Below, piece after piece: positions 475 through 48,861 of a stretch of DNA of 64,000 bases. A program made the position numbers and the translations under genes. The stretch comes from an archaeon (GTDB taxonomy: Archaea > Nanobdellota > Nanobdellia > Woesearchaeales > GW2011-AR9): positions 70,136-134,135 of the forward strand of contig JABHRS010000008.1 in assembly GCA_018670085.1 (NCBI GenBank), read 5' to 3'. The notes beneath the pieces are model-generated. The model was not told the DNA's origin, ran no database searches, and was given only the letters and a program-made list of their open reading frames with translations. Position 1 is the first letter of the stretch. Every line of letters begins with the position of its first letter.

Positions 475-2514
475 TTAAAAAAATCCTAAGAATTGATTGA
501 ATAATTGTTTAATTGAATCAACAAAAGAGCCTGCCTCAACTGTAATTTGAGTGGTTTCAGTCAATGAATATTCTCTTTTTAACGCATCATTCCAAGTTAT
601 TTGAATTTCTAACTGGTTGTTTTTAGCTAAAGTTGAAGAATCAATCTCAAGATTCAAATTTTCACTAGATGAAAGCTGCTCAACATCAAAAGTAAATTTT
701 TGGCGTCCAGTGTCTATAATCACTTCAACATTCATTGGAGTTGCAATACTGTCTTTGTTTATAGCTAAGGTGATTGGAATTGTTTCACCAAAATTAACTG
801 TGTTTTTAGCGTTAATATCCAATGAAACCTGCGCAGCATCAAGAACTAATATGCTTAGAATTTCTTTATCTTCAGTGTTATCAATTTCAACTGATGTTTC
901 TAAATTTTGATAACCTGTTTCAGTAAATGAGATTGTCTCTTTAACTGTTTTTGATTCTGAAAGTAGTAGTCCGAAAGATTCACAGATTTCAGTGATACAA
1001 ACTTTTACTTCATCAATTATCTGATTGCCTACATTTTCAACTTCACAAGTAATTGTTGCTGAGTTTTCGATTGCAATTTGGTCTGGATAGTTACAGTTGA
1101 TTTGAACATCTTGATTAAGTGACTGTGTTTCTACCTCTATTAATGAAGTAATTTCATCTTCTGAATATGTTGGTTTATTGATACCTGCATTAAAAGTATT
1201 TGTAGAGTTAACAATTGAATTTGCAAAAACTATATATGGGAAGCTGTAAGTATATTCGCTCTTTAAAGCATCATCTACTTCAACTATCCACTCTTCAGTG
1301 TGAGAGCCAAGAGCATCAATTACAATGACTTTCTTTTCGTCTAAAATGTTAATCTCTTCTGGTGCGATTAACCTTAACTCAACAGCTTGTCTTGAATTTT
1401 TATTATTGTAAATATTGGCTGTGATTAAATTAAAACTGCCAAAATTAACCATTGATGCGTAATGTTCTGTTTCAATTTCTAAACTTGGAGAAATTTTGTA
1501 TCCGAATTTAGAATTTTCTACATTGAATTCTAAATCTTCACTTTCAAGTCCAATATTTTTAGCAGTCCATTCATAATAAATACTTGGTTCAGTTGGGTCA
1601 ACACTATATTTTAATGGGATGTGTGTTGCATCAACAAAACCATACTGACCAAAGGTTGGATCAAAAGAAACCCATCCTGAATGAGGGATATAAACTTCTG
1701 CCCATCCATGTGCTTGCCAAGGATCACTGAATAAATCACTTCTAGTATAAGTTAATCCTGAAACGAACCTTGCTGGAATTCCAAGTGATCTGGAAAAAGA
1801 AATGAACAGGCTTGTCATCTCATCACAAACACCTTCTCTTGTTTCTAAAACTGAACTTGCAGGAAGAGATGCTTCCGCGTTTAACGTCGACAAATTGTAT
1901 TCAATATTACCTTCAACCCATGAAGCCATTTCAACTAATGCTTCAAATAAATTAGTGTGACCTTGAGCTAAGGCAGATGCTCTGCGTTTAATTTCATCAT
2001 TCTCCCAATCAATTGTATCTGTAACTGAGAGATATTCTTCCAAACCGTTTGCAGAAATTTCGCTTGCGGAAAGTTCTATTGGAAAATTATCAGAATTCTG
2101 AATTAAATGTTTAGTACTATCAATTGTAACTTTAGCATCATAGGTGAATGATTTGTCAAGTGGGTCTTTGTTGGTGAATGTATAGGTGATAGTGTCATCT
2201 GCAATTTCCCCTTCTGAACTGGTAGATTCTGAAATTAAGGTGACATAATTATTGTCTTCTTGAACATAAAGGTGTAAATTAGTTGTTGCTGATTGTAATG
2301 AAGCTGAGCTGGACTGTTCTATTAACTCAAAATCTCCAGAAACGGTGATGTCATAAGTAACTGATTCATAAGTTGCAAGATCTGCTAGGCCTTCATTTAC
2401 TTCTGCTAGTGTGTTGGAGGCAATAATTACTGTAGTAAAAATAACAAATAAAAGTAAAAATAGTGATTTTGATAAGAACTTTTTAGTGGATTTTTGATCT
2501 TTTTTATTTGCCAT
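475..2514 (-). CDS. anchored/secreted transglutaminase-like (papain-fold) protein with C-terminal beta-sandwich repeats
   Basis: N-terminal hydrophobic anchor (LFLLLFVIFTTVIIAS). Transglutaminase-core Cys-His-Asp context: GVCDEMTSLF ... AHGWAEVY ... SFDPT. Long C-terminal region of Ig/CARDB-like composition. Confidence 0.8.
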   Translation of the reverse strand: MANKKDQKSTKKFLSKSLFLLLFVIFTTVIIASNTLAEVNEGLADLATYESVTYDITVSGDFELIEQSSSASLQSATTNLHLYVQEDNNYVTLISESTSSEGEIADDTITYTFTNKDPLDKSFTYDAKVTIDSTKHLIQNSDNFPIELSASEISANGLEEYLSVTDTIDWENDEIKRRASALAQGHTNLFEALVEMASWVEGNIEYNLSTLNAEASLPASSVLETREGVCDEMTSLFISFSRSLGIPARFVSGLTYTRSDLFSDPWQAHGWAEVYIPHSGWVSFDPTFGQYGFVDATHIPLKYSVDPTEPSIYYEWTAKNIGLESEDLEFNVENSKFGYKISPSLEIETEHYASMVNFGSFNLITANIYNNKNSRQAVELRLIAPEEINILDEKKVIVIDALGSHTEEWIVEVDDALKSEYTYSFPYIVFANSIVNSTNTFNAGINKPTYSEDEITSLIEVETQSLNQDVQINCNYPDQIAIENSATITCEVENVGNQIIDEVKVCITEICESFGLLLSESKTVKETISFTETGYQNLETSVEIDNTEDKEILSILVLDAAQVSLDINAKNTVNFGETIPITLAINKDSIATPMNVEVIIDTGRQKFTFDVEQLSSSENLNLEIDSSTLAKNNQLEIQITWNDALKREYSLTETTQITVEAGSFVDSIKQLFNQFLGFF

Positions 2515-7577: not shown

Positions 7578-7585
7578 TTTATAAA
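7578..7585 (+). promoter_or_regulatory. TATA box (TTTATAAA) of the giant-protein operon
   Basis: Starts 31 nt upstream of in-frame ATG 7609. It abuts the ORF-track ATG at 7585, so 7609 is the more likely leaderless start. Confidence 0.45.
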
Positions 7586-7608
7586 TGTCAAAGTGTATCT
7601 TTGAACTT

Positions 7609-9795
7609 ATGTTTTTTAATAGAGGGGTTGGTGGTAGAGATAGTACTATTACTACTAAATCCACTACTAATATCACAACTAACAATTTTAAACAAATAAC
7701 TGATAAGATTTCTACTAAAAATAAAAAAGGACAAGTTACTATTTTCATAATCCTTGGTATTCTTTTATTACTCTCTGTCGCTTTGATTCTTTTACTCCGA
7801 GCAGAACAAGTTGGGTTTGAAATTTCTGAGATTATTCCAACTAAAAAAGGGGTTGTGGAAGAATATATTAGCAGCTGTATCAACGAAGTAGGATCCGATG
7901 CATTAAGTCTAATTGGTTTACAAGGAGGGTATATTGAAGTACCTGAGAGATATACTGATGATATCAATTGGCATATCCCTGTTAGTGATTTTATTGCTGT
8001 TCCACTTTGGGGAAGTGGAAATTTAATCGACCGACCTTCAATCTCTCAAATTAAAAATGATGTAGATGAATATGTTGAAGAAAATGTTCGTAATTGTTTA
8101 TTCGAAAATGAGATTAATGGAGGAGTATTTGATGAAATTTATACTCTAATTGAACTTGATGACATTGTAAGTGATGTGAAATTTGAAGATTCACATACAG
8201 ATTTTGATGTGACTTGGGACATTGTAGTTCAAGATAAAAGTGGAGAAGTGTTAAGTGAAATTATTCAACACAGTTCTAGAAGTGATGTTCAGTTTAAAAC
8301 CATGTATGATACAGCTTCAGACATTTTGGACACTGAAATGCTTGAATTAAAGTTAGAAGATATTACTCAGGATCTAATCTCTCTTGAACATGATAATTTG
8401 CCAGTTGCTGGAATGGAAATCAGTTGTGCTCCAAAACAATGGCGAACAAGTCAAGTTGAAGAAACATTAAAAGAAATGCTTCGAATAAATATTAGAGCAC
8501 TTCGAGTTGAAGGAACTAGTTTTACTGAATATTCAGAAGCTTTTCCATATTATCAAAATCATTATACTTGGAATATTGATGGGGAGGTAAGTGAGGATGT
8601 GGAAGTTAACTTTAGATATGAAAATAACTACCCATTCACATTTCAAGTAACTCCAACTAGCGGTGGATTAATGAAAAGTAATCAATTAGGTGGTGGAAAA
8701 TTATTGGATTTTCTTTGTTTGCAACAGTGGAAATTTACTTATGATGTTGTTTACCCTGTAATGATTCAAGTTTATGATGAAGACACCGGTGCTGTACTTC
8801 AAATGGGTGTTAGTGTAAATTTGGTAACTAATTATCCAGATAAAGGAGGAGTTGTTTACGCAAGAGAATCATACTTTGGAAATGATGCTGTAAATGAGGA
8901 AGAATATTGTCAAGATAGCAGTTATGTCTTGCCAGTAAGTGTAACCACTTATTCAGAAATTTCAAACGGTGCGAACGGAGTTTATTACCGGGAAACACTT
9001 GAAGATGTGAACATTAGCTATACTTGTCTGCTCTATACTTGTCCGATGGGTGCTAGTGAATACGATTATGAACAACGTGGAGATGTTGCTGGTCTTACTG
9101 CATTAATTCCATACTGTGCTGGCGGAATTCTTCGAGGAGAGAAAGATGGTTATTTAGACACTTGGACTTTTACCGATGTTAGAGAAGGTGATGAACATGA
9201 ATTGAATTTACGTCCTTTGCTTTCATTCCCACTTTCTCAAGTAGAAATAGTTAAACATACTATTAGTTCTTATGATTGCGGGGATGATGAACCAGTTGAT
9301 AACAACGGTCTTTGCGTAACAGTTGATACTGATGGTAGTGCACTTGATGAAGATGAAACTGTACTTGTGAATCTTCGAATGCTTGATGATGATATTGAAA
9401 TTATAACAGGTCAAGATGTGGGATCTAATGAGTCTACTGAATCTGAGTTATCAGATGAATTTGCTTTTTTTGCTTTAGAAGAAGAAGGGAATGAAGTTCA
9501 TAGTGTTGAGTTTGTAATGTCACCAACTTTTGAAGAAGAATTTTTAACCGAAGCCGTTGTAGATTTGTTATACGGTGCTGACTTTGAATATGAATTAATC
9601 ATCACACTAGTGAATGAAGAAGAATTACTTGGTGGATATGAAGGAATTGTGACTTTACCTTGGAGTGGGTTGGGCGCAGCAGAAACATTGAAATTTCATG
9701 TTTTTGATATCAAAGCAGGAGATGATGAATTTTATACCATCTTAGGTGGATTAGAAGAGTATACTAATTTGATCCCAGATATTGAGGTTGAATGA
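7609..9795 (+). CDS. acidic surface protein of unknown function with a pilin-like KKGQ + hydrophobic helix segment
   Basis: ORF open from 7585. KNKKGQVTIFIILGILLLLSVALILLL is followed by about 680 aa of acidic extracellular-looking sequence. No known catalytic motif. Confidence 0.6.
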   Translation: MFFNRGVGGRDSTITTKSTTNITTNNFKQITDKISTKNKKGQVTIFIILGILLLLSVALILLLRAEQVGFEISEIIPTKKGVVEEYISSCINEVGSDALSLIGLQGGYIEVPERYTDDINWHIPVSDFIAVPLWGSGNLIDRPSISQIKNDVDEYVEENVRNCLFENEINGGVFDEIYTLIELDDIVSDVKFEDSHTDFDVTWDIVVQDKSGEVLSEIIQHSSRSDVQFKTMYDTASDILDTEMLELKLEDITQDLISLEHDNLPVAGMEISCAPKQWRTSQVEETLKEMLRINIRALRVEGTSFTEYSEAFPYYQNHYTWNIDGEVSEDVEVNFRYENNYPFTFQVTPTSGGLMKSNQLGGGKLLDFLCLQQWKFTYDVVYPVMIQVYDEDTGAVLQMGVSVNLVTNYPDKGGVVYARESYFGNDAVNEEEYCQDSSYVLPVSVTTYSEISNGANGVYYRETLEDVNISYTCLLYTCPMGASEYDYEQRGDVAGLTALIPYCAGGILRGEKDGYLDTWTFTDVREGDEHELNLRPLLSFPLSQVEIVKHTISSYDCGDDEPVDNNGLCVTVDTDGSALDEDETVLVNLRMLDDDIEIITGQDVGSNESTESELSDEFAFFALEEEGNEVHSVEFVMSPTFEEEFLTEAVVDLLYGADFEYELIITLVNEEELLGGYEGIVTLPWSGLGAAETLKFHVFDIKAGDDEFYTILGGLEEYTNLIPDIEVE

Positions 9796-9863
9796 AATTT
9801 GAATTATAACTGAGTTAAGACAATAAAAATAATAATAAAGATCACAACAAAAATAATAATTAG

Positions 9864-12800
9864 ATGATGGTTGGAAAAAATAACGGTGCTGCTAAGAGTA
9901 ATTGGACTTTAATTCAGCGAAAGCTATTAGCACTATTTGTAATTTTATTATTTGTAAACATGCCAATAGTTGTGGCACTAGATATTAGTTCAGTTACTAG
10001 TAGTGATATAACTGGGTCAGATGCTGTTGTAACTTGGAACACTGATGAAGAGGCAAGTAGTTCAATTTATTATGGAACTGATATAAGTGATCTTAACTTA
10101 GTTGAAAGTAATTCTGATACTGTGTCTGAACATAGTTTAGCATTATCAGGATTGGAATCTGAAACTGAATATTATTATTATGTTGAGAGTGAGACTGCAA
10201 ATGATTCTGCTAGTGATGATAATTCTGGTGATTATTATTCTTTTACAACAGATGTTGCTGAAGAAGCTGAAACTGCAGAAGAAGCTAGCGAAACTGCAGA
10301 AACAACTGGAGAATCAAGCGAAAGTGAAGACACAAGTTCCATTGGACTAATTGTTGAACATGAAGCTTATGTCGGAAGTGACGAGTTAGATGTTGCGGTG
10401 ACAGCTACTGATAACACTGAAATTCGTGTATATGTAAATGGAGGATATTTTTCTAAAGACTCAGTTGATGCTGAAGAGAGCGGGACTGGAACTTTAACAT
10501 TTAGAAGTGTTCCATTAAATGAAGATCAATTAAACCAGATCACAGTTGAAGCTGTGCTTGGTGATTTAGAAGAAACTGTTACAAGTGATGTATATAGCGA
10601 TGCAACTCATCCAACATTATCTGTTAATAAGATAAATGATTATGTTGAAGAGAGCTCAATTACAATCAGTGGATCCGCAAGTGAGTTGGTTTCAGTTTCT
10701 ATAAAAGTCAATGGAGAAGAAGTAATATCTGGATCTGAAGAGCTGTCTGTAGATTTTTCAGAATCAGTTAATTTAGAAGAAGGTTCCAACACTATAATTA
10801 TCTCTGCAACAGATGCTGGTGGATTAACTACAACTGAAACCGTAAGAGTTACAAGTGATACTGAAGACCCGACAGTGGATGCAGTAATTGAAAAAGGAAA
10901 TGAATATTATCAAAATAGGGCTGAAACTGATATCACAGGAACCACTGAAGCTGGTGCTAAAGTATACTTATTTGTTTATCGACCACAAACTCATGATTAT
11001 TCCCCTGATTTTGATGATGCATGGGAAAAAGTTGAAGCTGATGAAAATGGTGAATTTAGATTCTCAGATATTGATTTTGAAAATGAACCAATTAGTTTTG
11101 ATGACTTAGCACCTTCACAAGTTCCAGCTGGGTTAGAGGAAGTTTCTATCAGCGGAGTTGATACATTAAATGATGCTGATGATTATACTTTTTACATTTA
11201 TATTATCTCAGAAGATGCTAGTGGAAAAACCGGTTATTACAAAGATAGTGTGACTGTTCATTCTTGTTATTCACAGAGTTTGGATTTTCAAATTACTGAT
11301 GTTGCTAAGTTCCAATCACCACTTAGATTAGATCCTACTTTGATGGATGATGGACGCGAGGTAATCTCAGCTGTATTCACACTTGATTACAGAGGAACTG
11401 GTTCAAGTGAAGTAGATGTGTCAACTGGAGCAGTTACAGAAAGTCCATTTCAAATTGGATCTGTAACTATCGAAAAAGCATGTACTCAAAGTATGCTTGA
11501 AGATGAAAAATTCTCACTTGGATGTACATTACTTGGAAGTAAACCAACTGAAATGGAACCAAACAGTGATGGGACTGCATATTATGTAACTTGGAATTTA
11601 GGATCTAGTGAAGATTTAAGTGAAAGAGATACTGATTTTTGGGATGATTTGAAAAAGAGAAAAATTGTTTTTCCATTAAAAGTTTCAGTTAATTATCAAG
11701 AACGTGAAGCAACAGGTGGACAGACTGGATCAAAAACTCAAACTAGTTGTACAGACATTTCTTATTTTGTAGATGTTCCAGTTGATAGTAAGGAATACAT
11801 CCCAGATTGGCTTGCAGAGGATGGAATAAAGGCAATTAATGTAACCATTGAAAAAATCGATAAAATTTTACCTTACTTAGAAAAAGCAATATTGATCACA
11901 AGTATTGGATGTGTAACTTCATTTCTTGGAAAAATTGTAATGCGTTTTGCTAGAATTGCAAGCAGTAATGTGGAAGCTATTAGTGGTGCGGTAAAACAAA
12001 AAACTGGAGAAAAAATCTATTGTCCAAGTTCAACTGAACAATGGAATATGTATTTAGATAGCTCAATTGAGTCTTGGAAAGACAGTATTGAAGATCATGA
12101 TCCTTCTGTAGAGAGCAGAATTAAAGATTACGATAACAGTTATATTGAAGATGAAGATAAACATGGTAAAAGTTTGGATGATAATTGTCCAAGTACAGCT
12201 AACATGTGGAAATTAGAATCTGGTCTTGAGCAAGCTTACAAGTGGACTTGTGATCGGGTATTTTGCCGAGCAGTGCCCGCGAAATGGACTGAAACAAAAG
12301 AGACTTATGAAATTGCAAGTGTGATTCAAAAACAACAACAATGTTCAGTTAGTGGGGCTTGTGTACCACTTCGTGAACAAGAGAACTGTCGTCAGTTCAT
12401 TCAAGATAATCAAAAGGGATTAACATTGGCACAAAATGTTGATGCAGATTTAGATGGGTTAGAAATTGATGGTGGAACTTGCTGGTGGAAAGATGATGAT
12501 GTGGAATTAATTGGAAATTCATTTTCAACATCATTATATTATTTTGATGGAAGTGATGAGGCTGGTGTTGTTAATGAAGATAATGGAGTTTACAAATTAA
12601 AAAAGATTGGAAGAACACTTGCAGATCCTGGAACTGTTTCTGGAGATTCTATCCTAGTGTACAAAGAAGGGGATTCTTATTGTAGTGCTCGTGATGCTTC
12701 ATGTTCCAAACTTTGTGGAAGTAGCCAAGCTGGAAATTTTAGGGCATATGAACCAAGAGATGGTGAAGGATATACTGTTAATCTTAAAGAGGGATTGGCA

Positions 12801-15488
12801 ACTCCTGGTGGTTCTTGTTTTATTGAGACTGAAGATGGTTTAAGTAGTAAGAAGGTAGGCGGAGATGCTCCAAAAGGCAAACAATTTGCAGCAGGATATA
12901 CCGATGATTGTTTTGTTGATAGTGTAGGAGATAAATATCAATGTATCTGTGAGAAGGATGATGATAAAGATGAAGGTGCACTAAAAGGAGCACGTCAAGC
13001 AATTGCAACAATCGAAGGCGAAGGAGATGCCGGAGAAATTCGAGAGAAATTTTTGTACCGCCAAGATCGAGTCTTTAAAGAAAGTTCAAGACTTAGAGGA
13101 ACATATTATCCATCTGAACGTTACTATGCTGGACGTGATTTAGCTGGAGCATTTGGGCAAGATTATTTGCTTGATTATTTGAACAGTGATGGAAACAAAA
13201 GACATCATGAAATTAATCCTAGCACTCAACATATTGGAGCATTTCAATCAATGTGTTTAAGTGGGATTCGTGGACGTTTAGTTTTACTTCGAAATGTTTT
13301 AGATGGACTTCGTCAATGTATTACTGAAGCAAAATATACTGGTCTTCAAGATGCTGGAATGTGTAAAACAATTTTTACTCAACATGTATGTGGTTTAGTT
13401 TACAAAGCAGTTTCTTATTTTACTGATAGCTGTACTCCTTATGGATTTTCAGACAACGGAAAAAGTGGAGATATTTTAGGTGAACAAATTAAAGCAACTT
13501 TTGCCAGTGTTGAACCTGCTATGCAAAGTAGTGTAGATGATTTACTTGCGGATTATGACAATGCTCATTTGAACGAATTTTTCTCTGGTGGCGCTCAAGG
13601 ACTTACTCAATCACTTTGTTTAGCTGCCTTTGGATATGATTTTCCACTTGGTGCTGATTTTATTCAAGATGCAGCTTATTCAGTTGCTATGAAAACTATG
13701 GTTTTAATCACACCAGCTAATAGGGAGTTTACAAATTATAATCCAAAAGATTTGACAACTGTTCATAACTATGAAGTTGCAGCTGTGATCTTTGCTGGTT
13801 GTAGAATTAATAATTATAACACTTATTTGAAATGTATCGGAACTGAAGATCAAGGTCGTCCAGGGATTGATACTAGCTGTGATGGGGAAGGATGTGATTG
13901 CTTATCAATTAAAACAGACACTTATGCTAGTCAAAGAATCCGTAATTTGGATGGCGGGACAGGATATGGGGTAGCTGCAGGTGAAATGGTTGATATTAAA
14001 CTTACAAGTCCTCAAAAAATTGATAGTCCTTACAGATACGATCATGTGGTTGTGGAAGTTGATTTGGATCCAAACGAGAACCCAGAGAAATGTTTTGATG
14101 AAGGTTATCGAACAGACACTGGTGGAATTTTTTATATGCCAATTAATGATATTACACCACCTGGGTTAGTTAGTTGTCAAGTTGAATCATTAACTGGGAG
14201 ATATACTTGTCCTGAGATTGGCGAATTATTTTATGGAGACGAAGGTCTTGCTTATTTAGAAGCACCTTACATTGAATGCCGTGATCCTTCAACAGGTGAC
14301 TTTGAAAGTTGTGGTACTCCTAACATGCTCTTGCTAAATAATAATGATAAAGATTTGGTAATCAAACCGTATGTATACACAGATGGTGCTGGTTATTGTA
14401 TGAAAATAAAAGTGACTGGTTCTGGAACAGATTATGGGACTGAAATTGTAAAAATACCTGTTGGACAAACAGGAGGAATGGCACCAAGTATTGATATCGG
14501 AGAAATTTCAGATGAAATGTTTGGTGAATACAGTAATGATCTGAAATTAGTTAGTGGAAGTAATGTTGGATGTACTCAACTCGGAGTTACTAACAGTCCG
14601 TCAAGTGTTAGCAGTTCAAGTATCAATTTTAAGTATTCAATCGGAGCTAGAAGTGATGGTAGTGATGGATACAAAGTGACAATCCCTGAAGATGTAACAT
14701 TTGTAACAACCGGTTATGAACTAAGTAGTAGCGCAAATAGATATCTAATATCTACAACATCTTCGGAAACCTATTTGGATTTAGATGAGATTAATGATAT
14801 CTCTTTTGAATATGAAGGATTCGAATTTCATAATATTTTAGGGAAAGCTAGTGCAGCAGGAGATAAATATTGTAAATATAAAGTACAAGTAGCATCTAGT
14901 TCAATAAATACTCGTAATGAAGCAAGTATAGGTGTAGAAGTCGCATTACTTCAAATGCCAGAAGGTGGATCCTGTTATTCTGCAAAAATTCCAGTAACTG
15001 ATAATGCACTTGGAGCTAGTAGTAAGAAAGTGACAGTTGTAATTCAAAAAGAGTCAGTTGCTGTTGCAAGTACTAGTAACCTTCATAGTAATTTTTTAGC
15101 AGGAGATTATGAGGATGTAATTGATATGGCCTCAACTCTGATCTTAGAAGAACCTGGAACACTTAGTGAAGCAGAAGGAATTTATTATTATGTGATGAGT
15201 TTGGGTGCCTTGGGAGTTAAAGGTAGTGGTATCGATTATTATGAAACTGAAATGGTGAACCTGATGAAAAGGTTCTTTTTCCGAGTTGATACTTCAAGTG
15301 ATTTAGTAACTACTTTTGATGATGATGTTCAAAGTTATGCTGAATTTCAAAATTATAGAAATTATCTTTGTAAAATTGCAGATGAACTTAGTGTTGGAAG
15401 TAGAAATTTTGTAGATGTTAATAATCAAAAAGATGTAACTTATGATTCTTCAACAGGGAAGGGGACTAGTATGTGGGGATGTATTTAG
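9864..15488 (+). CDS. giant (1874 aa) surface protein: signal anchor, FN3-like domain, acidic linker, Ig-like repeats, internal hydrophobic segment, about 1150-aa Cys-rich region
   Basis: LLALFVILLFVNMPIVVA anchor. VVTWNTDEEASSSIYYG...ETEYYYYV (FN3-like). EEAETAEEASETAETT linker. Repeats ending in DTEDPTV. AILITSIGCVTSFLGKIVMRFA. More than 40 Cys by eye downstream. Confidence 0.7.
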   Translation: MMVGKNNGAAKSNWTLIQRKLLALFVILLFVNMPIVVALDISSVTSSDITGSDAVVTWNTDEEASSSIYYGTDISDLNLVESNSDTVSEHSLALSGLESETEYYYYVESETANDSASDDNSGDYYSFTTDVAEEAETAEEASETAETTGESSESEDTSSIGLIVEHEAYVGSDELDVAVTATDNTEIRVYVNGGYFSKDSVDAEESGTGTLTFRSVPLNEDQLNQITVEAVLGDLEETVTSDVYSDATHPTLSVNKINDYVEESSITISGSASELVSVSIKVNGEEVISGSEELSVDFSESVNLEEGSNTIIISATDAGGLTTTETVRVTSDTEDPTVDAVIEKGNEYYQNRAETDITGTTEAGAKVYLFVYRPQTHDYSPDFDDAWEKVEADENGEFRFSDIDFENEPISFDDLAPSQVPAGLEEVSISGVDTLNDADDYTFYIYIISEDASGKTGYYKDSVTVHSCYSQSLDFQITDVAKFQSPLRLDPTLMDDGREVISAVFTLDYRGTGSSEVDVSTGAVTESPFQIGSVTIEKACTQSMLEDEKFSLGCTLLGSKPTEMEPNSDGTAYYVTWNLGSSEDLSERDTDFWDDLKKRKIVFPLKVSVNYQEREATGGQTGSKTQTSCTDISYFVDVPVDSKEYIPDWLAEDGIKAINVTIEKIDKILPYLEKAILITSIGCVTSFLGKIVMRFARIASSNVEAISGAVKQKTGEKIYCPSSTEQWNMYLDSSIESWKDSIEDHDPSVESRIKDYDNSYIEDEDKHGKSLDDNCPSTANMWKLESGLEQAYKWTCDRVFCRAVPAKWTETKETYEIASVIQKQQQCSVSGACVPLREQENCRQFIQDNQKGLTLAQNVDADLDGLEIDGGTCWWKDDDVELIGNSFSTSLYYFDGSDEAGVVNEDNGVYKLKKIGRTLADPGTVSGDSILVYKEGDSYCSARDASCSKLCGSSQAGNFRAYEPRDGEGYTVNLKEGLATPGGSCFIETEDGLSSKKVGGDAPKGKQFAAGYTDDCFVDSVGDKYQCICEKDDDKDEGALKGARQAIATIEGEGDAGEIREKFLYRQDRVFKESSRLRGTYYPSERYYAGRDLAGAFGQDYLLDYLNSDGNKRHHEINPSTQHIGAFQSMCLSGIRGRLVLLRNVLDGLRQCITEAKYTGLQDAGMCKTIFTQHVCGLVYKAVSYFTDSCTPYGFSDNGKSGDILGEQIKATFASVEPAMQSSVDDLLADYDNAHLNEFFSGGAQGLTQSLCLAAFGYDFPLGADFIQDAAYSVAMKTMVLITPANREFTNYNPKDLTTVHNYEVAAVIFAGCRINNYNTYLKCIGTEDQGRPGIDTSCDGEGCDCLSIKTDTYASQRIRNLDGGTGYGVAAGEMVDIKLTSPQKIDSPYRYDHVVVEVDLDPNENPEKCFDEGYRTDTGGIFYMPINDITPPGLVSCQVESLTGRYTCPEIGELFYGDEGLAYLEAPYIECRDPSTGDFESCGTPNMLLLNNNDKDLVIKPYVYTDGAGYCMKIKVTGSGTDYGTEIVKIPVGQTGGMAPSIDIGEISDEMFGEYSNDLKLVSGSNVGCTQLGVTNSPSSVSSSSINFKYSIGARSDGSDGYKVTIPEDVTFVTTGYELSSSANRYLISTTSSETYLDLDEINDISFEYEGFEFHNILGKASAAGDKYCKYKVQVASSSINTRNEASIGVEVALLQMPEGGSCYSAKIPVTDNALGASSKKVTVVIQKESVAVASTSNLHSNFLAGDYEDVIDMASTLILEEPGTLSEAEGIYYYVMSLGALGVKGSGIDYYETEMVNLMKRFFFRVDTSSDLVTTFDDDVQSYAEFQNYRNYLCKIADELSVGSRNFVDVNNQKDVTYDSSTGKGTSMWGCI

Positions 15489-15525
15489 TGATTGAGGTTA
15501 ATTGATTCAAATTTAAAATAAAAAA

Positions 15526-16113
15526 ATGGTTGGAAATAAAGGGGGGTTGGCAATAGAATCTTTGGCACTATTAGTCACAGTGTTAATCACTAGTGCTGCA
15601 GTTTTTTATTTAGTCCAGAGTGGGATTGTAACTGTTGAAGGTTCAGGTAATGGAGCTGGTTCTGCAAGTTTACAAGACCAATTTTTGAATGTGGAATTTT
15701 TCCCTATAGCTCAAGGGGGAACTTTAGCAATCCAAGATTTCACTCTTTGTTATGAAGATGATGTAAATCATAACAGTCTACTTTGTGATCAAGAGAGGGA
15801 GTTATTTTTTGTTGGTGATCAGGTGCATTTTAGTTTTCAAGTTATTAGTAGTAGTTACCTCGGATCAATTGAACTGTTTGAGAATTACCGGCTTCTTGGA
15901 CCAGGCGGAGACATTCTTTTAGATGTGAATGCAAAGGAAGACTTTGAGTTTGAAGCAGATGCAGATGAATCAGTCGAAGGGGTATTTTTTCATGATTATT
16001 TTATCTTAGATGATAGTGATCCTGTTGGTGTTTATACCTTGGAACTTGTAATTACTAATCCATTGATTGGAAAGGAAGTAGTACTTAGAAAAGAAGTTGT
16101 AGTGACTGGGTAG
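15526..16113 (+). CDS. small anchored protein with a type IV pilin-like N-terminus and a beta-sandwich-like body
   Basis: MVGNKGGLAIESLALLVTVLITSAAVFYLV has Gly then Glu at +5 if cleaved after KG, followed by a hydrophobic helix. It lies 37 nt after the giant ORF with no separate TATA at -30. Confidence 0.55.
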   Translation: MVGNKGGLAIESLALLVTVLITSAAVFYLVQSGIVTVEGSGNGAGSASLQDQFLNVEFFPIAQGGTLAIQDFTLCYEDDVNHNSLLCDQERELFFVGDQVHFSFQVISSSYLGSIELFENYRLLGPGGDILLDVNAKEDFEFEADADESVEGVFFHDYFILDDSDPVGVYTLELVITNPLIGKEVVLRKEVVVTG

Positions 16114-16196: not shown

Positions 16197-17489
16197 ATGA
16201 AAATAAATTCAGTGCATGCCAGGGAAATTTTAGACAGTAGAGGAAATCCAACTGTGGAGGTTGAGATTTCAACTAAACTTGGATCTTTTATAGGGGTAAG
16301 CCCTAGCGGTGCGTCTACTGGAGAGCATGAAGCCGTTGAAAAACGTGATGGAGGATCTCGCTATTTAGGTAAGGGAGTTAAAAAATCTGTTCAACTGATA
16401 AATTCTAAAATTGCTAAATCACTAATAGGTAAATCTTGTCTGAATCAAAAAAAATTGGATGAATTGCTTTGTTTAATTGATGGGACTGATGATAAACGAA
16501 AAATTGGAGCAAATGGTATTGTTGCATGTTCAATGGCTATTGCAAGGGCAGGAGCTGCAAGTTATAAAAAACCACTTTATACTCATTTGAATGATATTTA
16601 TTCTAAACTGTATGGGAAAAAAATTGCTGTGAAAATTCCTCAAGGATATTTTAATGTACTAAACGGGGGGAGGCATGCAGCAAATAAACTAGCTTTTCAA
16701 GAATTTATGTTGGTACCTAGTGCAAATTCATTTGCTAAACAATTACAAATGGTCAGTGAGATTTATCATCATTTGCAAGTTTTGCTGATTAAAAAATTTC
16801 CTGGTCAAGTAATTGCAGTTGGCGATGAAGGAGGATTTGCACCGCCACTTAGTAAACCTGAAGAAGCTCTTAATTTATTAGTTAAAGCAGTTGAGATTGC
16901 AGGATATTCAAAGAAGGTATCTTTTGCAATGGATGTTGCAGCTAGTGAATTTTATTCTGAAAGAAAAGGCCGTGGAAAATCAAGTGGAGAGTATAGAGCA
17001 CACAAGATGTTTAATGCTAGTAGTTTAATGAAATACTATATCTCTCTTTGTGAAAAATATAATATAGTTTCTATTGAAGATCCATTTGATGAAAATGCAT
17101 TTGTAGATTTTGCTAGCTTAAGAAAATTAATATCTCAAAATTCTAACTTGAAAAAAAGGAAGATTCAAATAGTCGGAGATGATCTTACTTGTACTAACAG
17201 TTTGCGGGTAAAGGTTGCAGTTCTTGAAGAGAGTTGTGATTGTTTACTCTTGAAAGTAAATCAAATTGGGACCGTAACTGAGGCGATGCAATCAGCTGTG
17301 CTTGCTCAAAAAAATGGATGGAAAGTAATGGTGTCTCACAGAAGTGGAGAAACTTCCGATACTTTTATTGCAGACCTTGCTGTTGGAATTGGCTGTGGTC
17401 AAATTAAATCAGGATCAACTGCTCGAGGCGAGAGAGTTGCTAAATACAATCAATTACTCAGAATTGAAGAGAGGATGAAAAGGAGATGA
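16197..17489 (+). CDS. eno: enolase
   Basis: MKINSVHAREILDSRGNPTVEVEI, SHRSGETSDTFIADLAVG and KYNQLLRIEE are canonical enolase motifs. 430 aa. Confidence 0.95.
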   Translation: MKINSVHAREILDSRGNPTVEVEISTKLGSFIGVSPSGASTGEHEAVEKRDGGSRYLGKGVKKSVQLINSKIAKSLIGKSCLNQKKLDELLCLIDGTDDKRKIGANGIVACSMAIARAGAASYKKPLYTHLNDIYSKLYGKKIAVKIPQGYFNVLNGGRHAANKLAFQEFMLVPSANSFAKQLQMVSEIYHHLQVLLIKKFPGQVIAVGDEGGFAPPLSKPEEALNLLVKAVEIAGYSKKVSFAMDVAASEFYSERKGRGKSSGEYRAHKMFNASSLMKYYISLCEKYNIVSIEDPFDENAFVDFASLRKLISQNSNLKKRKIQIVGDDLTCTNSLRVKVAVLEESCDCLLLKVNQIGTVTEAMQSAVLAQKNGWKVMVSHRSGETSDTFIADLAVGIGCGQIKSGSTARGERVAKYNQLLRIEERMKRR

Positions 17490-18862
17490 ATTTTCGATTT
17501 AAATTATTGTTTCAATTATTCTTAATGATTCTAGTAGTTAGTAGTTTATCATTTGTGGTTTTTGCTCCAGCTCCCGGTAGTGGTTCTGCATCTTTAGGTG
17601 AAGATGATTTGGCTTGTCGTGATCAAAATGACTGTGATGAAATTGATGAAGCGTGGGTATTGTTTGTTAGTATTACTGGAGTGAATGGTGGAAGTCAAGA
17701 TGTTTGGCAAGCAAAAGAGAAGAGTAGTGGTGATTATGGTGGAGATTGGGTAGCTTATTCTGAGAAGTATCCAAGTGATGATGATTTAACAATTGAATGT
17801 GATGAGAAATTAACTTGTGGTGATTTAACAGAGATTAAAAGTGGAGATAATATTGATGCAAACTCTGGGTCTGAATCTAATTGTGCAAAGAGTGAGGTAG
17901 TATCAGATTTTGAAAAGGCAGCCGCAGCGTTTGAATCAAAATCAAGTAAAAAAATAGTTTTAACTAGTGGGTTTAGAACTATTCAAAGTCAAGCTGAACT
18001 TTATTGGACTAACTGTTATGATAAAACTGGCACTGGAGACACCGGAAGACTTGGTAGTTGTGATCCTCCAACAGCTGCTTTAGGTATTAGTTCAACTGTG
18101 TTAGATGATTACACAAGTCATGATGAAGTTATTAATGAGTTTTGTGAAAATGGTAATTATAATGTTGGTTATCATACTAAAGGAACTGCGCTTGACATTT
18201 GGCCTGAAGGAACTGTTGATGATTGGGTTGCAAACGTGAAGTTAATGAATCAAATGCAAGACAAAATGGAAGATAATGGATTTTGTAGATTAGCTTCAGA
18301 AGGATGGCATTATGATTATAAGAGTTCATGCGGCAGTTCTGGAAGTGCTGCTAAAGGTGATTATACTTATAGTAGAAGTGGAGTTACTGATGATTATGAT
18401 CCAGTTAGTGAATGTAAAAAAAATGGTTGTGCTTTGGAAGACTGTTGGTGGGATTATCTTAAACATGAAATTGATGAGTCTAAATCAGTTTGTAATTTAA
18501 CTCCATGTTCAGAATATCAAGAAGATGGATATTATTGCAGTGTTAATGTAGGATCAGATTCAGATGCAAAATGTGTAGATCCTTCTGATAATGAGGAATA
18601 TGTCTGTGATAATGATTTAGAGTATTGTTCTGTTTATGATGATGAAGAGGTTTATTCTTGTGAGGTGTTGAATAATAAATGTTATATCATAACTTCTAGT
18701 TCATCTTATAACTTAGGAGATGGATTTGATTGTATAAATGATCAAAAAAGTTGTTCATCATATTCTCTGGATGATTATGATTGTGGGTCTATCATCTTGA
18801 GTAATACTGATTGTACTGATAAATTAACTGGAAAGTCTTATTATTGTTATAATGATTATTGA
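17486..18862 (+). CDS. secreted Cys-rich protein with an M15 (LAS-family, VanY/D-Ala-D-Ala carboxypeptidase-like) zinc peptidase domain
   Basis: Signal anchor LLFQLFLMILVVSSLSFVVFA. TSGFRTIQSQAELYW, GYHTKGTALDIW (HxxGxAxD) and SEGWHYDY (ExWH). The C-terminal 150 aa is very Cys/Asp-rich. The start overlaps the eno stop (ATGA). Confidence 0.7.
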   Translation: MNFRFKLLFQLFLMILVVSSLSFVVFAPAPGSGSASLGEDDLACRDQNDCDEIDEAWVLFVSITGVNGGSQDVWQAKEKSSGDYGGDWVAYSEKYPSDDDLTIECDEKLTCGDLTEIKSGDNIDANSGSESNCAKSEVVSDFEKAAAAFESKSSKKIVLTSGFRTIQSQAELYWTNCYDKTGTGDTGRLGSCDPPTAALGISSTVLDDYTSHDEVINEFCENGNYNVGYHTKGTALDIWPEGTVDDWVANVKLMNQMQDKMEDNGFCRLASEGWHYDYKSSCGSSGSAAKGDYTYSRSGVTDDYDPVSECKKNGCALEDCWWDYLKHEIDESKSVCNLTPCSEYQEDGYYCSVNVGSDSDAKCVDPSDNEEYVCDNDLEYCSVYDDEEVYSCEVLNNKCYIITSSSSYNLGDGFDCINDQKSCSSYSLDDYDCGSIILSNTDCTDKLTGKSYYCYNDY

Positions 18863-38077: not shown

Positions 38078-38264
38078 ATTTCTTATTTTATTTTGTTAAA
38101 TGCAATTATTTTGTTCCCTTATTGTTGTTTTTATGAAGACAATTTAAGAAATGTTTATTAAGGGGAATTACTTGGTGATCAGTATTAATCTGAATTAAAA
38201 GAGGTGGCGAGAAACTAAAAAGTTTTTGAACCATCTTTTTGTAAACAAAAAGAGGTATGGAATT

Positions 38265-45980: not shown

Positions 45981-45993
45981 GAGGAAAAACAAA

Positions 45994-47764: not shown

Positions 47765-47780
47765 AGGGATTTTCTAAATT

Positions 47781-48856: not shown

Positions 48857-48861
48857 TTGAG

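What the first reader, a model, noticed from the sequence alone, without database searches (positions are those of the whole stretch)
7578..16113. Three-gene operon built around a 1874-aa Cys-rich giant surface protein flanked by proteins with pilin-like N-termini
Seen in sequence:
- The three ORFs are co-directional with 68- and 37-nt gaps. Only the first has a TATA at the canonical -30 position, so they look like one transcription unit.
- ORF1 (728 aa from ATG 7609) carries KKGQ|VTIFIILGILLLLSVALILLL. This is a charged-Gly-Gln plus hydrophobic helix pattern like class III (type IV pilin-like) signal peptides, although it sits 41 aa from the N-terminus.
- ORF2 has a signal anchor, an FN3-like module, an acidic linker, Ig-like repeats and one internal hydrophobic segment. 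These are followed by about 1150 aa with more than 40 Cys (by eye) and no motif I can assign.
- ORF3 begins MVGNKGGLAIESLALLV... (Gly, with Glu at +5 if cleaved after KG).

Established knowledge: DPANN-type genomes are known for very large surface proteins thought to mediate host contact. Type IV pilin-like signals mark archaeal surface filaments.

Inference: this may be a filament or tip-adhesin style host-attachment module. The Cys-rich 1150-aa region is a candidate new domain family.
Basis: partly seen in the sequence, partly recalled or inferred. Interest (0 to 1): 0.7.

Follow-up and report, generated by a model that had tools for sequence, protein, structure and literature searches.

The report
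Woesearchaeal pilin-linked giant protein and lysin operon

Summary
ORF1 (7609-9795), ORF2 (9864-15488) and ORF3 (15526-16113) exist, with 68- and 37-nt gaps and one TATA box at -31.

All 83 related loci with room downstream of an ORF1 homologue (85 examined) carry ORF2 next. ORF3 follows in 66 of the 68 with room.

- **ORF1:** the family has an invariant K-K-[G/A]|Q-V-T-x-F-I-I-x-G N-terminus, the same site type as EppA-processed Methanococcus pilins.
- **ORF3:** a 190-aa protein with K-K-[G/A]|xxxxE, a prepilin-type signature.
- **ORF2:** the 1,200-aa Cys-rich core has 36 Cys conserved at 97% or more. It has no Pfam, PDB or Foldseek relative and defines about 790 clusters at 50% identity.

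New findings:
- A fourth gene (here 17486-18862, displaced by enolase) follows ORF3 almost everywhere. It has a conserved about 50-aa Cys-loop module plus swappable murein hydrolase, lipase or phosphoesterase domains.
- ORF2 core, ORF3 and ORF4 almost completely lack N-x-S/T sequons (0 observed against 169 expected in one region). This places them outside the cell and argues against the internal hydrophobic helix being a membrane span.

Best reading: a pilin-anchored surface complex presenting polymorphic bacteriolytic enzymes. No pilus ATPase or peptidase is nearby. Filament formation and processing are untested.

The parts
7578..7584 (+). TATA box (TTTATAA), the only one in canonical position for the whole ORF1-to-RelA run
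   Evidence: Sequence read directly. It lies -31 to -25 from ATG 7609.
7609..9795 (+). ORF1, 728 aa (the open frame extends back to ATG 7585). It has a variable cytoplasmic leader, a class III-type site, an unassigned alpha/beta domain with 8 invariant Cys, and C-terminal beta-sandwich domains.
   Evidence: (more than 211 homologues, none named, no Pfam). AlphaFold pLDDT is 88.5. Foldseek finds only adhesin-stalk-type beta-sandwiches: SdrD B domains at E 1.3e-5, Gram-positive pilins and a carboxypeptidase regulatory-like domain.
7723..7800 (+). ORF1 putative prepilin-peptidase site K-K-G|Q-V-T-I-F-I-I-L-G plus a 22-aa hydrophobic helix
   Evidence: over 179 sequences: position -1 is G in 130, A in 48 and S in 1. 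Position -2 is K/R in 157. +1 Q, +3 T, +5 F and +9 G are invariant. The site type matches Methanococcus EpdB/EpdC 'KGQV' (PMC4371748).
9864..15488 (+). ORF2, 1874 aa giant secreted protein
9864..9980 (+). ORF2 Sec-type signal peptide (conserved N-L-P-x-V-S-A|L-E-I-S)
9996..11240 (+). ORF2 variable stalk: FN3-like domain (residues 45-129), acidic linker and Ig-like domains (residues 250-333). Other lineages insert a transglutaminase-core domain here.
   Evidence: Pfam results. Sequon content is normal, with observed/expected about 0.9.
11241..14840 (+). ORF2 conserved disulfide-rich core (residues 460-1659), fold unassigned
   Evidence: 36 Cys are conserved at 97% or more in 67 homologues. AlphaFold gives pLDDT 80 and pTM 0.61. 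Foldseek finds 0 hits at E<=1e-3 in PDB and in BFVD. The family has 790 clusters at 50% identity. Sequon observed/expected is 0 to 0.16 after residue 715 and 0.49 over 460-645.
11805..12002 (+). 66-residue helix (residues 648-713) containing the 'internal hydrophobic segment' 675-693
   Evidence: The uncharged stretch is only about 15 residues here, but 20-24 in the distant homologues P0013 and P0202.
14841..15485 (+). ORF2 less conserved C-terminal region (residues 1660-1874), not modelled
   Evidence: Sequon observed/expected is 0.10.
15526..16113 (+). ORF3, 195 aa pilin-like protein with one conserved disulfide (C75, C87)
   Evidence: No Pfam or PDB match.
15526..15615 (+). ORF3 prepilin-type N-terminus M-x-K-[KQ]-[GA]|x-x-x-x-E followed by an approximately 22-aa helix with conserved T-S-A
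   Evidence: G/A and E/Q lie five residues apart in most of about 60 homologues.
16197..17489 (+). Enolase, a housekeeping gene lying inside the unit in this clade (it comes after ORF4 in most others)
   Evidence: Pfam E 1.8e-103. Gene order.
17486..18862 (+). ORF4, 458 aa secreted protein with 26 Cys, the fourth operon member. Here it carries a VanY/M15-type LAS metallopeptidase domain (residues 136-278).
   Evidence: Pfam VanY E 3.2e-5 at 24.2 bits, just under the 25-bit cut-off. The motifs SGFRT..Q, H-x-x-G-x-A-x-D and E-G-W-H are read from the sequence. There is no PDB sequence hit.
17615..17779 (+). ORF4 operon-specific Cys-loop module C-x6-C-x-E-I-D-x-[AV]-W ... V-W ... W
   Evidence: An HMM built from this module hits 59 ORFs in 57 loci. 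All are the gene after ORF3 or enolase, or (in two loci, L010 and L036) a second copy immediately downstream; nothing else in about 1.5 Mb of loci matches.
475..2514 (-). Secreted transglutaminase-core protein, a possible accessory
   Evidence: Pfam E 2e-25. It is conserved upstream in this clade. The same domain is fused into the ORF2 stalk in P0167 and P0169.

Best explanation
**What it is.** ORF1, ORF2, ORF3 and ORF4 encode one extracellular, membrane-tethered complex. It is conserved across Woesearchaeota-type DPANN archaea and is aimed at bacterial cell envelopes.

**Shown.**
- The four genes are a conserved, often translationally coupled unit.
- ORF1 and ORF3 are the only members with a membrane-anchoring element. 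In both it has the form of a prepilin-peptidase substrate.
- ORF2 and ORF4 have Sec-type signals and no anchor.
- ORF2 core, ORF3 and ORF4 are disulfide-rich and purged of N-glycosylation sequons.
- ORF4 combines an operon-specific module with interchangeable murein-hydrolase, lipase and phosphoesterase domains.

**Inferred.**
- A prepilin peptidase (EppA/PibD-type, encoded elsewhere) trims ORF1 after K-K-G and ORF3 after K-K-G/A.
- Their hydrophobic helices hold them in the membrane, or in a short pilus or pseudopilus-like stub assembled by a type IV filament machinery encoded elsewhere.
- Secreted ORF2 docks on them. Its glycosylatable FN3/Ig stalk and its large glycan-free core project beyond the S-layer.
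- ORF4 binds through its Cys-loop module.
- On contact with a bacterium, the complex holds the cell wall while ORF4 cuts murein and/or lipids. This gives the metabolically reduced archaeon a foothold or access to cell contents.
For: **Synteny.**
- 83 of 85 loci with an ORF1 homologue carry ORF2 immediately downstream. The other two are cut by the contig end.
- 66 of the 68 loci with room carry ORF3.
- Median gaps are 14 nt and -7.5 nt. ORF3-ORF4 overlaps by 4 nt in most loci.
- The ORF1-ORF2 pair persists at 20-25% identity in two unrelated genomic contexts, L003 and P0202.

**Signal motifs.** The ORF1 site is identical in type to the EppA substrates 'KGQV' (PMC4371748). A preprint reports Epd-like filament system 1 and subsystem 4A in some DPANN (10.64898/2026.04.22.720090).

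**ORF4.**
- Over 53 members Pfam finds GDSL lipase in 14, SLT in 13, FGE-sulfatase-like in 11, DUF2272 in 8, Amidase_2 in 7, Metallophos in 5, M15_4 in 4, Hydrolase_2 in 4 and M23 in 3. GH25, glucosaminidase and M74 also occur.
- Domains differ even between close relatives. The window has M15, while L008 has M23 plus Amidase_2 although its ORF1 is 72% identical.
- The shared Cys-loop module is exclusive to this gene position.

**Extracellular location and shared constraint.**
- Sequon observed/expected is 0/169 (ORF2 residues 1280-1660), 1/67 (ORF3) and 6/321 (ORF4).
- It is about 1.0 for enolase and RelA, and 1.28 for the S-layer protein. The reverse-motif control is about 1.
- The number of conserved Cys is even: 36 in ORF2, 8 in ORF1 and 2 in ORF3.

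**Literature.**
- Large extracellular SLT-domain proteins, and a module of 51 unknown families specific to Woese- and Pacearchaeota, are reported (PMC8204110).
- Peptidoglycan hydrolases are prominent in Nanoarchaeota and can kill bacteria (PMC12352652).
- A 'vampiristic' lifestyle has been proposed for Woesearchaeota (PMC9723730).
Against: - There is no experimental or expression data.
- No assembly ATPase, platform protein or prepilin peptidase is in the window or in any of 87 loci, so processing and filament assembly are assumptions.
- Curated pilin N-terminal HMMs do not match.
- The N-termini of ORF1 and ORF3 are unlike each other, which argues against co-polymerisation in one filament.
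- The ORF1 model lacks a continuous pilin alpha-1 helix.
- Physical association of the four proteins is inferred only from gene order.
- The unit is single-copy, strongly conserved and embedded among housekeeping genes (CysRS, enolase, RelA). That is also what a structural envelope component would look like.
- The distant L003 cluster has ORF1 and ORF2 paralogues, but no ORF3 or hydrolase was detected.
Confidence: 0.45

Rival explanations
1. This is a plain type IV pilus tip or adhesion module. ORF1 and ORF3 are minor pilins that prime a pilus and display ORF2 as a non-pilin tip adhesin, in the manner of PilY1. ORF4 is merely a co-transcribed exoenzyme with no physical link.
For: - Prepilin-type N-termini are conserved.
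- A large Sec-dependent non-pilin is encoded between pilin-like genes, as in minor-pilin/PilY1 operons (PMC8179133).
- ORF1 has adhesin-like beta-sandwich domains.
- ORF2 has FN3 and Ig domains.
Against: - ORF4 carries a module found only at this gene position and overlaps the ORF3 stop codon in most loci.
- ORF4 shares the extreme sequon avoidance of ORF2 core and ORF3.
- No filament machinery lies nearby.
- The N-terminal helices of ORF1 and ORF3 are dissimilar.
Confidence: 0.15
2. This is a housekeeping envelope structure of the archaeon itself, for example an S-layer-spanning scaffold, a cell-cell bridge or a division-site complex. The hydrolases are general nutrient-scavenging enzymes that happen to share the transcript.
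For: - The unit is near-universal and single-copy, with conserved order next to CysRS, enolase and RelA.
- The core is strongly conserved, unlike typical fast-evolving host-contact proteins.
Against: - A canonical S-layer protein is encoded separately at 41155-43722.
- The ORF4 module is operon-specific and translationally coupled.
- Murein-specific enzymes have no substrate in the archaeon itself.
Confidence: 0.2
3. This is a cell-surface 'degradosome' for scavenging free cell-wall debris, lipids and nucleic acids. It is cellulosome-like, is not contact-dependent, and involves no host or prey.
For: The ORF4 repertoire includes phosphoesterases and nucleases (Metallophos, Exo_endo_phos), deacetylases and lipases as well as muralytic domains. 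DPANN archaea are reported to lack most biosynthetic capacity, including lipid and nucleotide synthesis (own knowledge; cf. PMC8204110).
Against: This does not explain why a 1,400-aa glycan-free, disulfide-locked core and two pilin-like proteins are needed to display one enzyme. Rapid domain swapping between close relatives looks more like an arms race than like substrate scavenging.
Confidence: 0.12
4. ORF2 is a type I membrane protein. The hydrophobic stretch 675-693 spans the membrane, and the Cys-rich 1,150 aa lie in the cytoplasm as a metal-binding domain.
For: - Kyte-Doolittle hydropathy is 1.86 over 19 residues.
- Basic residues follow the stretch (K/R-x-V-x-R-[WF]-x-R).
- The stretch is 20-24 uncharged residues long in P0013 and P0202.
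Against: - Sequons are almost absent after the helix (46 observed against 538 expected), while cytoplasmic controls are at about 1. This implies exposure to the oligosaccharyltransferase.
- The number of conserved Cys is even, with few CxxC-type motifs.
- The C-terminal 380 modelled residues are Ig-like beta-sandwiches.
- The helix is part of a confidently modelled 66-residue helix.
Confidence: 0.05

Closest known systems
Minor-pilin / PilY1 (PilC) tip complex of bacterial type IV pili, as discussed in PMC8179133. The example operon fimU-pilVWXY1E of Pseudomonas is from my own knowledge.
   Same: Pilin-like proteins with class III signals and a very large Sec-dependent non-pilin protein sit in one operon. 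The large protein is thought to be displayed by the pilin-like ones for adhesion, and its N-terminal part is modular and variable.
   Different: ORF2 has no PilY1 beta-propeller and no Pfam or Foldseek relation to it. No major pilin or assembly genes are nearby. The system is archaeal, and a lytic enzyme is part of the unit.
Modular or large minor pilins: S. sanguinis PilB, ETEC CofB and T2SS GspK (PMC8179133)
   Same: ORF1 is a 700-aa protein with a prepilin-type N-terminus followed by bulky functional and beta-sandwich modules.
   Different: The ORF1 model shows no recognisable pilin module. The membrane helix is joined to the rest by a flexible linker, and the InterPro/Pfam pilin signatures are not matched.
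EppA-processed Epd pilins of Methanococcus maripaludis (processing sites KGQV, KGQI, KGQL; PMC4371748)
   Same: ORF1 has the same K-G|Q-V site with an invariant +1 Gln. ORF3 has the +5 Glu typical of this class. A preprint reports Epd-like system 1 in some DPANN.
   Different: No single protein here has both +1 Q and +5 E. ORF1 is about five times larger than Epd pilins. ORF3 has virtually no sequons, whereas four of the five Epd pilins carry several (table in PMC4371748). No EppA has been identified.
[quoted passage not shown]
   Same: It is a precedent for large, non-filament archaeal surface proteins that use a prepilin-type signal for surface localisation.
   Different: Those proteins are solute-binding proteins with a dedicated Bas assembly system. 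There is no sequence relation.
Large extracellular SLT-domain proteins of Woese- and Pacearchaeota (fam00969, PMC8204110) and archaeal peptidoglycan hydrolases (PMC12352652)
   Same: ORF4 members with SLT, amidase, M23 or M15 domains are most likely among these already noted proteins.
   Different: Those papers, as far as the held text shows, treat the enzymes alone. The conserved operon with two pilin-like proteins and the giant Cys-rich protein, and the shared Cys-loop module, are not described.
Omnitrophota giant 'archaeovorin' genes next to T2SS-like loci and small class III signal genes (bioRxiv 10.1101/2023.11.21.568195)
   Same: An ultra-small, host-dependent organism links a giant surface protein, pilin-like genes and cell-wall-degrading domains.
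   Different: That system is bacterial and preys on archaea, its proteins are 10-40 times larger, and its enzymatic domains lie inside the giant protein. There is no homology.

Membership tests
Type IV pilin-like / class III signal peptide proteins (ORF1) | Short basic leader ending in G/A/S at -1 with K/R at -2, followed directly by a hydrophobic stretch of about 20 aa | tested here: met
   Over 179 homologues: -1 is G in 130, A in 48 and S in 1; -2 is K/R in 157. A 22-aa hydrophobic stretch follows, then [RKQ]-x-E. The leader is unusually long and variable, at 5-48 aa.
Type IV pilin-like / class III signal peptide proteins (ORF1) | +1 Gln, required by EppA-type peptidases | tested here: met
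   Q is present at +1 in 179 of 179 sequences. The requirement is stated in PMC4371748.
Type IV pilin-like / class III signal peptide proteins (ORF1) | +5 Glu | tested here: not met
   +5 is an invariant Phe. [quoted passage not shown]
Type IV pilin-like / class III signal peptide proteins (ORF1) | Pilin fold: a continuous N-terminal alpha-1 helix packed onto a beta-sheet or Ig-like head | tested here: not met
   In the AlphaFold model (pLDDT 88.5) the helix covers residues 49-76, followed by a 10-aa low-confidence linker and then a separate alpha/beta domain. This is a model only.
Type IV pilin-like proteins (ORF3) | Leader ending in G/A, an acidic residue at +5, then a hydrophobic helix; size of about 130-200 aa | tested here: met
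   The pattern is M-x-K-[KQ]-[GA]|xxxx[E/Q]. In the fixed register of 59 anchored sequences, G/A occupies -1 in 42 and E/Q occupies +5 in 41. Eleven more have E one position later, so one-residue register shifts blur the counts. Proteins are 178-223 aa.
Type IV pilin-like proteins (ORF1 and ORF3) | Match to curated pilin N-terminal models (Pfam Class_IIIsignal or Pilin_N; NCBIfam) | tested here: not met
   There are no hits even at E<=10 on isolated N-termini and none in NCBIfam. The ORF3 profile has no PDB hit at E<=10.
Type IV filament systems | Assembly ATPase (PilB-like), platform protein (PilC-like) and prepilin peptidase encoded with or near the pilin genes | tested here: not met
   None appears among the window ORFs scanned with Pfam. 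No G-x-T-G-S-G-K-T Walker A motif occurs in any ORF of 87 loci. Presence elsewhere in the genome could not be tested.
Type IV filament systems | Experimental N-terminal processing and incorporation into a filament | not testable with these tools
   This needs proteomics or cryo-EM.
PilY1/PilC tip adhesins (ORF2) | C-terminal PilY1/PilC beta-propeller domain | tested here: not met
   Pfam hits are confined to the N-terminal FN3- and Ig-like domains (residues 45-129 and 250-333), with none to the PilY1/PilC beta-propeller. Foldseek finds 0 PDB matches at E<=1e-3.
Archaeal S-layer proteins (ORF2) | S-layer domains, or being the sole abundant envelope protein | tested here: not met
   ORF2 has no S-layer Pfam hit. 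A separate S_layer_C protein lies at 41155-43722.
LAS / M15 (VanY-type) metallopeptidases (window ORF4) | Pfam VanY/M15 match and the Zn-site motifs H-x(3-6)-D and E-x-x-H, plus S-x-x-R | tested here: inconclusive
   VanY scores E 3.2e-5 at 24.2 bits, just below the 25-bit cut-off. SGFRT..Q, HTKGTALD and EGWH are present in the sequence. There is no PDB sequence hit. Other ORF4s hit M15_4, M23, Amidase_2 and SLT well above their cut-offs.
Polymorphic effector architecture (ORF4 family) | A conserved system-specific module combined with interchangeable catalytic domains | tested here: met
   The module HMM hits 59 ORFs in 57 loci, found only in this gene or an adjacent duplicate of it. 23 Pfam families occur among 53 members. 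Domains are swapped between close relatives.

The most novel reading that the evidence does not exclude
The four proteins form a previously unrecognised archaeal, contact-dependent, bacteria-breaching machine. It would be a pilin-anchored, glycan-free, disulfide-locked 'drill head' (ORF2 core, a new fold) that carries exchangeable murein and lipid hydrolases. Woesearchaeales, and probably Pacearchaeales, would use it to parasitise or prey on bacteria. That would make many DPANN archaea episymbionts or predators of bacteria rather than of archaea.
Probability: 0.3. Interest if true: 0.9.

Novelty: new variant of a known kind. Interest (0 to 1): 0.72.

Why it matters
Woesearchaeota and their relatives are among the most widespread uncultivated archaea. 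Their hosts and their way of interacting with other cells are unknown.

- **A concrete target.** This operon is the first well-defined and near-universal genetic candidate for that interaction. It ties the scattered reports of 'odd' murein hydrolases in DPANN genomes to specific partner proteins: two prepilin-like anchors and a giant protein of new fold.
- **A pointer to the host.** The enzymes imply bacteria as the target.
- **Direct handles for experiments:**
  - antibodies or FISH-cryo-ET against ORF2;
  - lysis assays with ORF4 variants;
  - N-terminal proteomics for the K-K-G|Q site;
  - co-occurrence of ORF4 domain type with bacterial cell-wall chemotype.
- **Wider uses.** The ORF2 core (about 790 clusters at 50% identity, no Pfam model) and the ORF4 Cys-loop module deserve family definitions. 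The near-total sequon avoidance is a simple sequence signature that could find other glycan-free extracellular machines in archaea.

Tried and rejected
- **Known family for ORF1, ORF2 core or ORF3.** Searches of Pfam, NCBIfam, PHROGs, PDB sequences (single sequence and profile), Foldseek PDB and BFVD gave nothing beyond the N-terminal FN3/Ig domains and generic beta-sandwiches.
- **Virus or mobile element.** There is no relative in 2.9 million viral contigs. The chromosomal context is conserved.
- **Viral or cellular fusogen-like fold.** I considered this because of the long helix with a hydrophobic segment. There is no structural match.
- **S-layer protein.** A separate S_layer_C gene is present.
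- **Internal helix as a membrane span with a cytoplasmic Cys-rich domain.** The sequon statistics disfavour this.
- **The L003 1,099-aa Cys-rich protein as a short ORF2 paralogue.** hhalign gives only 10.5% probability over 62 columns, so this is left open.
- **'QVT-type' N-termini on other proteins as evidence for a generic sorting signal.** I withdrew this. Those proteins also share the first residues of the ORF1 ectodomain and are probably paralogues.
- **Taxonomic identity of the distant loci.** Cluster look-up gave no names.
- **Model coordinates.** These were not available, so Cys-Cys distances and helix packing could not be checked.
- **Literature.** Searches for a description of this operon found none.

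Full report
**1. The observation**

The window is low-GC (about 33%) and archaeal. It encodes ribosomal protein S8e and LonB, and an intron-containing tRNA that Rfam finds.

The three ORFs are at the stated coordinates, co-directional, with gaps of 68 and 37 nt. TTTATAA at 7578-7584 lies -31 to -25 from ATG 7609. No TATA-like hexamer sits in that position before ORF2, ORF3, enolase, the next gene or RelA. The 728-aa start is also the one in the public annotation of the identical protein.

- FN3-like domain at residues 45-129 and Ig-like domain at residues 250-333;
- an acidic linker;
- one internal hydrophobic stretch at 675-693;
- 42 Cys, all after residue 467.

**2. Conservation and true extent of the unit**

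Homologue counts:
- A profile of ORF1 finds more than 211 unnamed homologues.
- ORF2 finds about 74 by word-seeded search.
- An exhaustive profile search of the ORF2 core finds 790 clusters at 50% identity (662 at E<=1e-10).

A scan of one genome per GTDB species found 108 with an ORF1 relative. The 80 loci kept are titled Woesearchaeota, Nanoarchaeota or Nanoarchaeia, unclassified 'archaeon', or, for many TPA assemblies, 'uncultured Methanosarcinales archaeon'. I take that last title to be a submitter placeholder, because these loci are syntenic and 35-72% identical to the others.

Gene order across 85 loci:
- 83 have ORF2 directly after ORF1. The other two end at the contig edge.
- 66 of the 68 with room have ORF3 next.
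- One exception has a divergent analogue with a similar N-terminus.
- Junctions are tight or overlapping.

The ORF1-ORF2 pair also occurs at 20-25% identity in two unrelated neighbourhoods. In one of them it is duplicated, as two ORF1 paralogues each followed by a Cys-rich giant.

A fourth gene follows ORF3 in almost every locus, usually overlapping its stop codon.

**3. The N-termini**

*ORF1 family (179 sequences).*
- Position -1 is G in 130, A in 48 and S in 1.
- Position -2 is K/R in 157.
- +1 Q, +3 T, +5 F and +9 G are invariant.
- A 22-residue hydrophobic stretch is closed by [RKQ]-x-E.
- The preceding leader is unconserved and 5-48 aa long.

This is the site type 'KGQV' of the EppA-processed Methanococcus pilins EpdB and EpdC, and EppA requires the +1 Gln (PMC4371748).

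*ORF3 family.* It has M-x-K-[KQ]-[GA], four residues, E (or Q), then a helix with a conserved T-S-A. This is the G(-1)/E(+5) prepilin signature.

*Against membership.*
- No curated pilin model matches, even at E<=10, and the ORF3 profile has no PDB hit.
- The ORF1 AlphaFold model (pLDDT 88.5) has a 28-residue helix joined by a low-confidence linker to an unassigned alpha/beta domain and then adhesin-type beta-sandwiches. It does not show a continuous pilin alpha-1 helix.
- The helices of ORF1 and ORF3 are unlike each other.
- No secretion ATPase, platform protein or A24 peptidase is in the window or in 87 loci.

A preprint reports Epd-like system 1 and subsystem 4A filament machineries in some DPANN, so such genes may lie elsewhere in the genome. 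I could not test this.

**4. ORF2**

The N-terminus looks like a cleavable Sec signal. The first about 460 residues are variable and tolerate insertions, including a transglutaminase core in P0167 and P0169 at residues 229-369. From residue 460 on, the protein is conserved, and 36 Cys are present in 97% or more of 67 homologues.

AlphaFold on residues 460-1659, with 68 sequences, gives pLDDT 80 and pTM 0.61. The model contains beta-rich and helical regions, a 66-residue helix (648-713) that includes the hydrophobic segment, and C-terminal beta-sandwiches. Foldseek finds nothing at E<=1e-3 in PDB or BFVD, only weak Ig-like matches. The 'candidate new domain family' claim is therefore supported.

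**5. Topology and an unexpected signature**

The hydrophobic stretch could in principle span the membrane. It is longer in the distant homologues.

N-x-S/T sequon counts across 67 ORF2 homologues argue against that:

| Region or family | Observed / expected | Ratio |
|---|---|---|
| ORF2 stalk, residues 40-460 | - | about 0.9 |
| ORF2 460-645 | - | 0.49 |
| ORF2 715-1065 | - | 0.15 |
| ORF2 1065-1280 | - | 0.16 |
| ORF2 1280-1660 | 0 / 169 | 0 |
| ORF2 1660-1874 | - | 0.10 |
| ORF3 ectodomains | 1 / 67 | 0.01 |
| ORF4 family | 6 / 321 | 0.02 |
| ORF1 | - | 0.49 |
| Enolase | - | 1.02 |
| RelA | - | 1.10 |
| Window S-layer protein | - | 1.28 |

The reversed motif stays near 1 throughout.

Selection against sequons only makes sense for polypeptides exposed to the oligosaccharyltransferase. 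The Cys-rich region is therefore extracytoplasmic. ORF2 core, ORF3 and ORF4 share a constraint to remain glycan-free. Why they must stay glycan-free is unexplained.

**6. ORF4**

All 53 ORF4s examined have Sec-type signals. Their catalytic content is heterogeneous:

| Pfam domain | Members (of 53) |
|---|---|
| GDSL lipase | 14 |
| SLT | 13 |
| FGE-sulfatase-like | 11 |
| DUF2272 | 8 |
| Amidase_2 | 7 |
| Metallophos | 5 |
| M15_4 | 4 |
| Hydrolase_2 | 4 |
| Exo_endo_phos | 3 |
| M23 | 3 |

Polysaccharide deacetylase, phage lysozyme, glucosaminidase, GH25 and M74 also occur. Domains are often present in pairs.

Close relatives differ. L008 has ORF1 at 72% identity to the window, yet its ORF4 carries M23 plus Amidase_2, where the window has a VanY/M15-like domain.

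The ORF4s nevertheless share an approximately 50-aa module, C-x6-C-x-E-I-D-x-V-W...V-W-D...W. An HMM of this module hits 59 ORFs in 57 loci. All lie at this gene position or, in two loci, immediately after it, and nothing else in about 1.5 Mb matches. This is the architecture of a system-specific adaptor with exchangeable warheads.

As far as is known, these archaea make no murein (own knowledge), so the substrates are bacterial. The literature already notes large extracellular SLT proteins and a block of 51 unknown families specific to Woese- and Pacearchaeota (PMC8204110). It also reports abundant peptidoglycan hydrolases in Nanoarchaeota (PMC12352652) and a proposed 'vampiristic' lifestyle (PMC9723730). 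None of the texts I could search describes this operon.

**7. Mechanism**

*Shown.*
- The unit has four genes, is conserved and is tightly coupled.
- Only ORF1 and ORF3 have membrane-anchoring helices, and both carry prepilin-type sites.
- ORF2 and ORF4 are secreted without anchors.
- ORF2 core, ORF3 and ORF4 share disulfide richness and sequon avoidance.
- ORF4 is polymorphic and directed at murein or lipid.

*Inferred.*
- ORF1 and ORF3 are processed and act as anchors or as a short pilus-like stub.
- ORF2 docks on them and projects through the S-layer.
- ORF4 docks via its module.
- The assembly binds and locally digests bacterial envelopes.

I put this at about 0.45. The rivals are:
- a plain pilus-tip adhesin with an unrelated co-transcribed enzyme (0.15);
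- a housekeeping envelope structure (0.20);
- a non-contact scavenging display (0.12);
- a transmembrane ORF2 with a cytoplasmic Cys-rich domain (0.05).

**8. Comparison with what is known**

In function the unit resembles several known systems:
- minor-pilin/PilY1 tip complexes and modular minor pilins (PMC8179133);
- EppA-type pilins;
- the Sulfolobus bindosome;
- conceptually, Omnitrophota giant proteins beside T2SS-like loci.

It is not a demonstrable member of any of these families. The PilY1 propeller, the pilin HMMs, the pilin fold (for ORF1) and neighbouring assembly genes were all tested and not met.

I rate it a new variant of a known kind: a type IV-pilin-associated surface adhesin system, with a new giant core fold and an integrated polymorphic lysin. 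There is a 0.3 chance that it is a genuinely new contact-dependent bacteriolytic machine.

Noticed in passing
window 18960-20882 (+): A full-length RelA/SpoT homologue (HD_4, RelA_SpoT, TGS and ACT_4 domains) sits in an archaeon. It is conserved just downstream of the operon in most related loci. To my knowledge, long RSH enzymes are unusual in archaea.
   Followed up: partly
window 16197-17489 (+): Enolase sits inside the operon here, between ORF3 and ORF4, with the ORF4 start overlapping its stop codon. In most other lineages it directly follows ORF4. The enolase-RelA linkage to the operon is conserved while the upstream context varies.
   Followed up: partly
ORF2 residues 715-1874, ORF3, ORF4 (window 12009-15485, 15526-16113, 17486-18862) and their families: N-x-S/T sequons are almost entirely avoided: 0 against 169 expected, 1 against 67 and 6 against 321. 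The ORF2 stalk, the S-layer protein and cytoplasmic proteins are not depleted. The reason is unknown.
   Followed up: yes
window 475-2514 (-): A secreted transglutaminase-core protein is conserved upstream in this clade. The same domain is fused into the ORF2 stalk in other lineages (P0167, P0169), which suggests a functional link.
   Followed up: partly
window 37457-38077, 38226-39116, 39181-39777 (+): Three paralogous small secreted proteins have six Cys each. Two of them have near-identical N-termini (MESKVKGFF.VT.LV...GDGA.AGNAVS). None has a Pfam match. They lie upstream of the S-layer gene.
   Followed up: no
window 41155-43722 (+): An 855-aa protein matches S_layer_C (E 4.6e-14). It is the likely S-layer subunit, with normal sequon content.
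   Followed up: partly
window 43834-46740 (+): Three adjacent genes together resemble ATP-citrate lyase: ATP-grasp_2 plus Citrate_bind, CoA_binding plus Ligase_CoA, and the citrate synthase C-terminal domain. This seems notable in a reduced DPANN genome.
   Followed up: no
window 54606-58339 (+): A phosphonate biosynthesis set is present: PEP mutase fused to a cytidylyltransferase, a TPP-dependent decarboxylase and an Fe-alcohol dehydrogenase. It lies next to a glycosyltransferase island (46772-54100, including a FemAB-like gene at 49668-50735) and sulfatase/phosphodiesterase-type genes (58352-61138). This suggests phosphonate-decorated surface glycans.
   Followed up: no
window 35469-35568 (+): A 100-nt tRNA, presumably intron-containing, was found by Rfam (52.4 bits) but missed by ARAGORN.
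   Followed up: no
L003 194-15772 (ENA ERZ10759792 NODE_37): A distant lineage has a larger co-directional cluster. It contains two ORF1 paralogues (741 and 648 aa), each followed by a Cys-rich giant (1,099 and 1,923 aa), with a 523-aa secreted protein and a 269-aa multi-pass membrane protein between them. No ORF3 or hydrolase was detected. It may be an ancestral or expanded form of the system.
   Followed up: partly
L005 5417-8632; L070 182-1207; L081 3420-4373 (-): Other Woesearchaeal proteins (1,071, 341 and 317 aa) share the K-G-Q-V-T-x-F-I-I-x-G N-terminus and the first residues of the ORF1 ectodomain. They look like a wider family of ORF1-like anchored proteins with different C-terminal parts.
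   Followed up: partly
L012 and L050 (both NZCK01, MAG ARS1203): One MAG carries two divergent copies of the ORF1-ORF2 pair, at 69% and 36% identity to the window ORF1. Some genomes may therefore have two systems, unless the bin is mixed.
   Followed up: no
window 4989-7043 (-): A 684-aa secreted orphan protein lies directly upstream on the opposite strand. It matches no family, and a homologue was found only in the nearest relative (L012).
   Followed up: no
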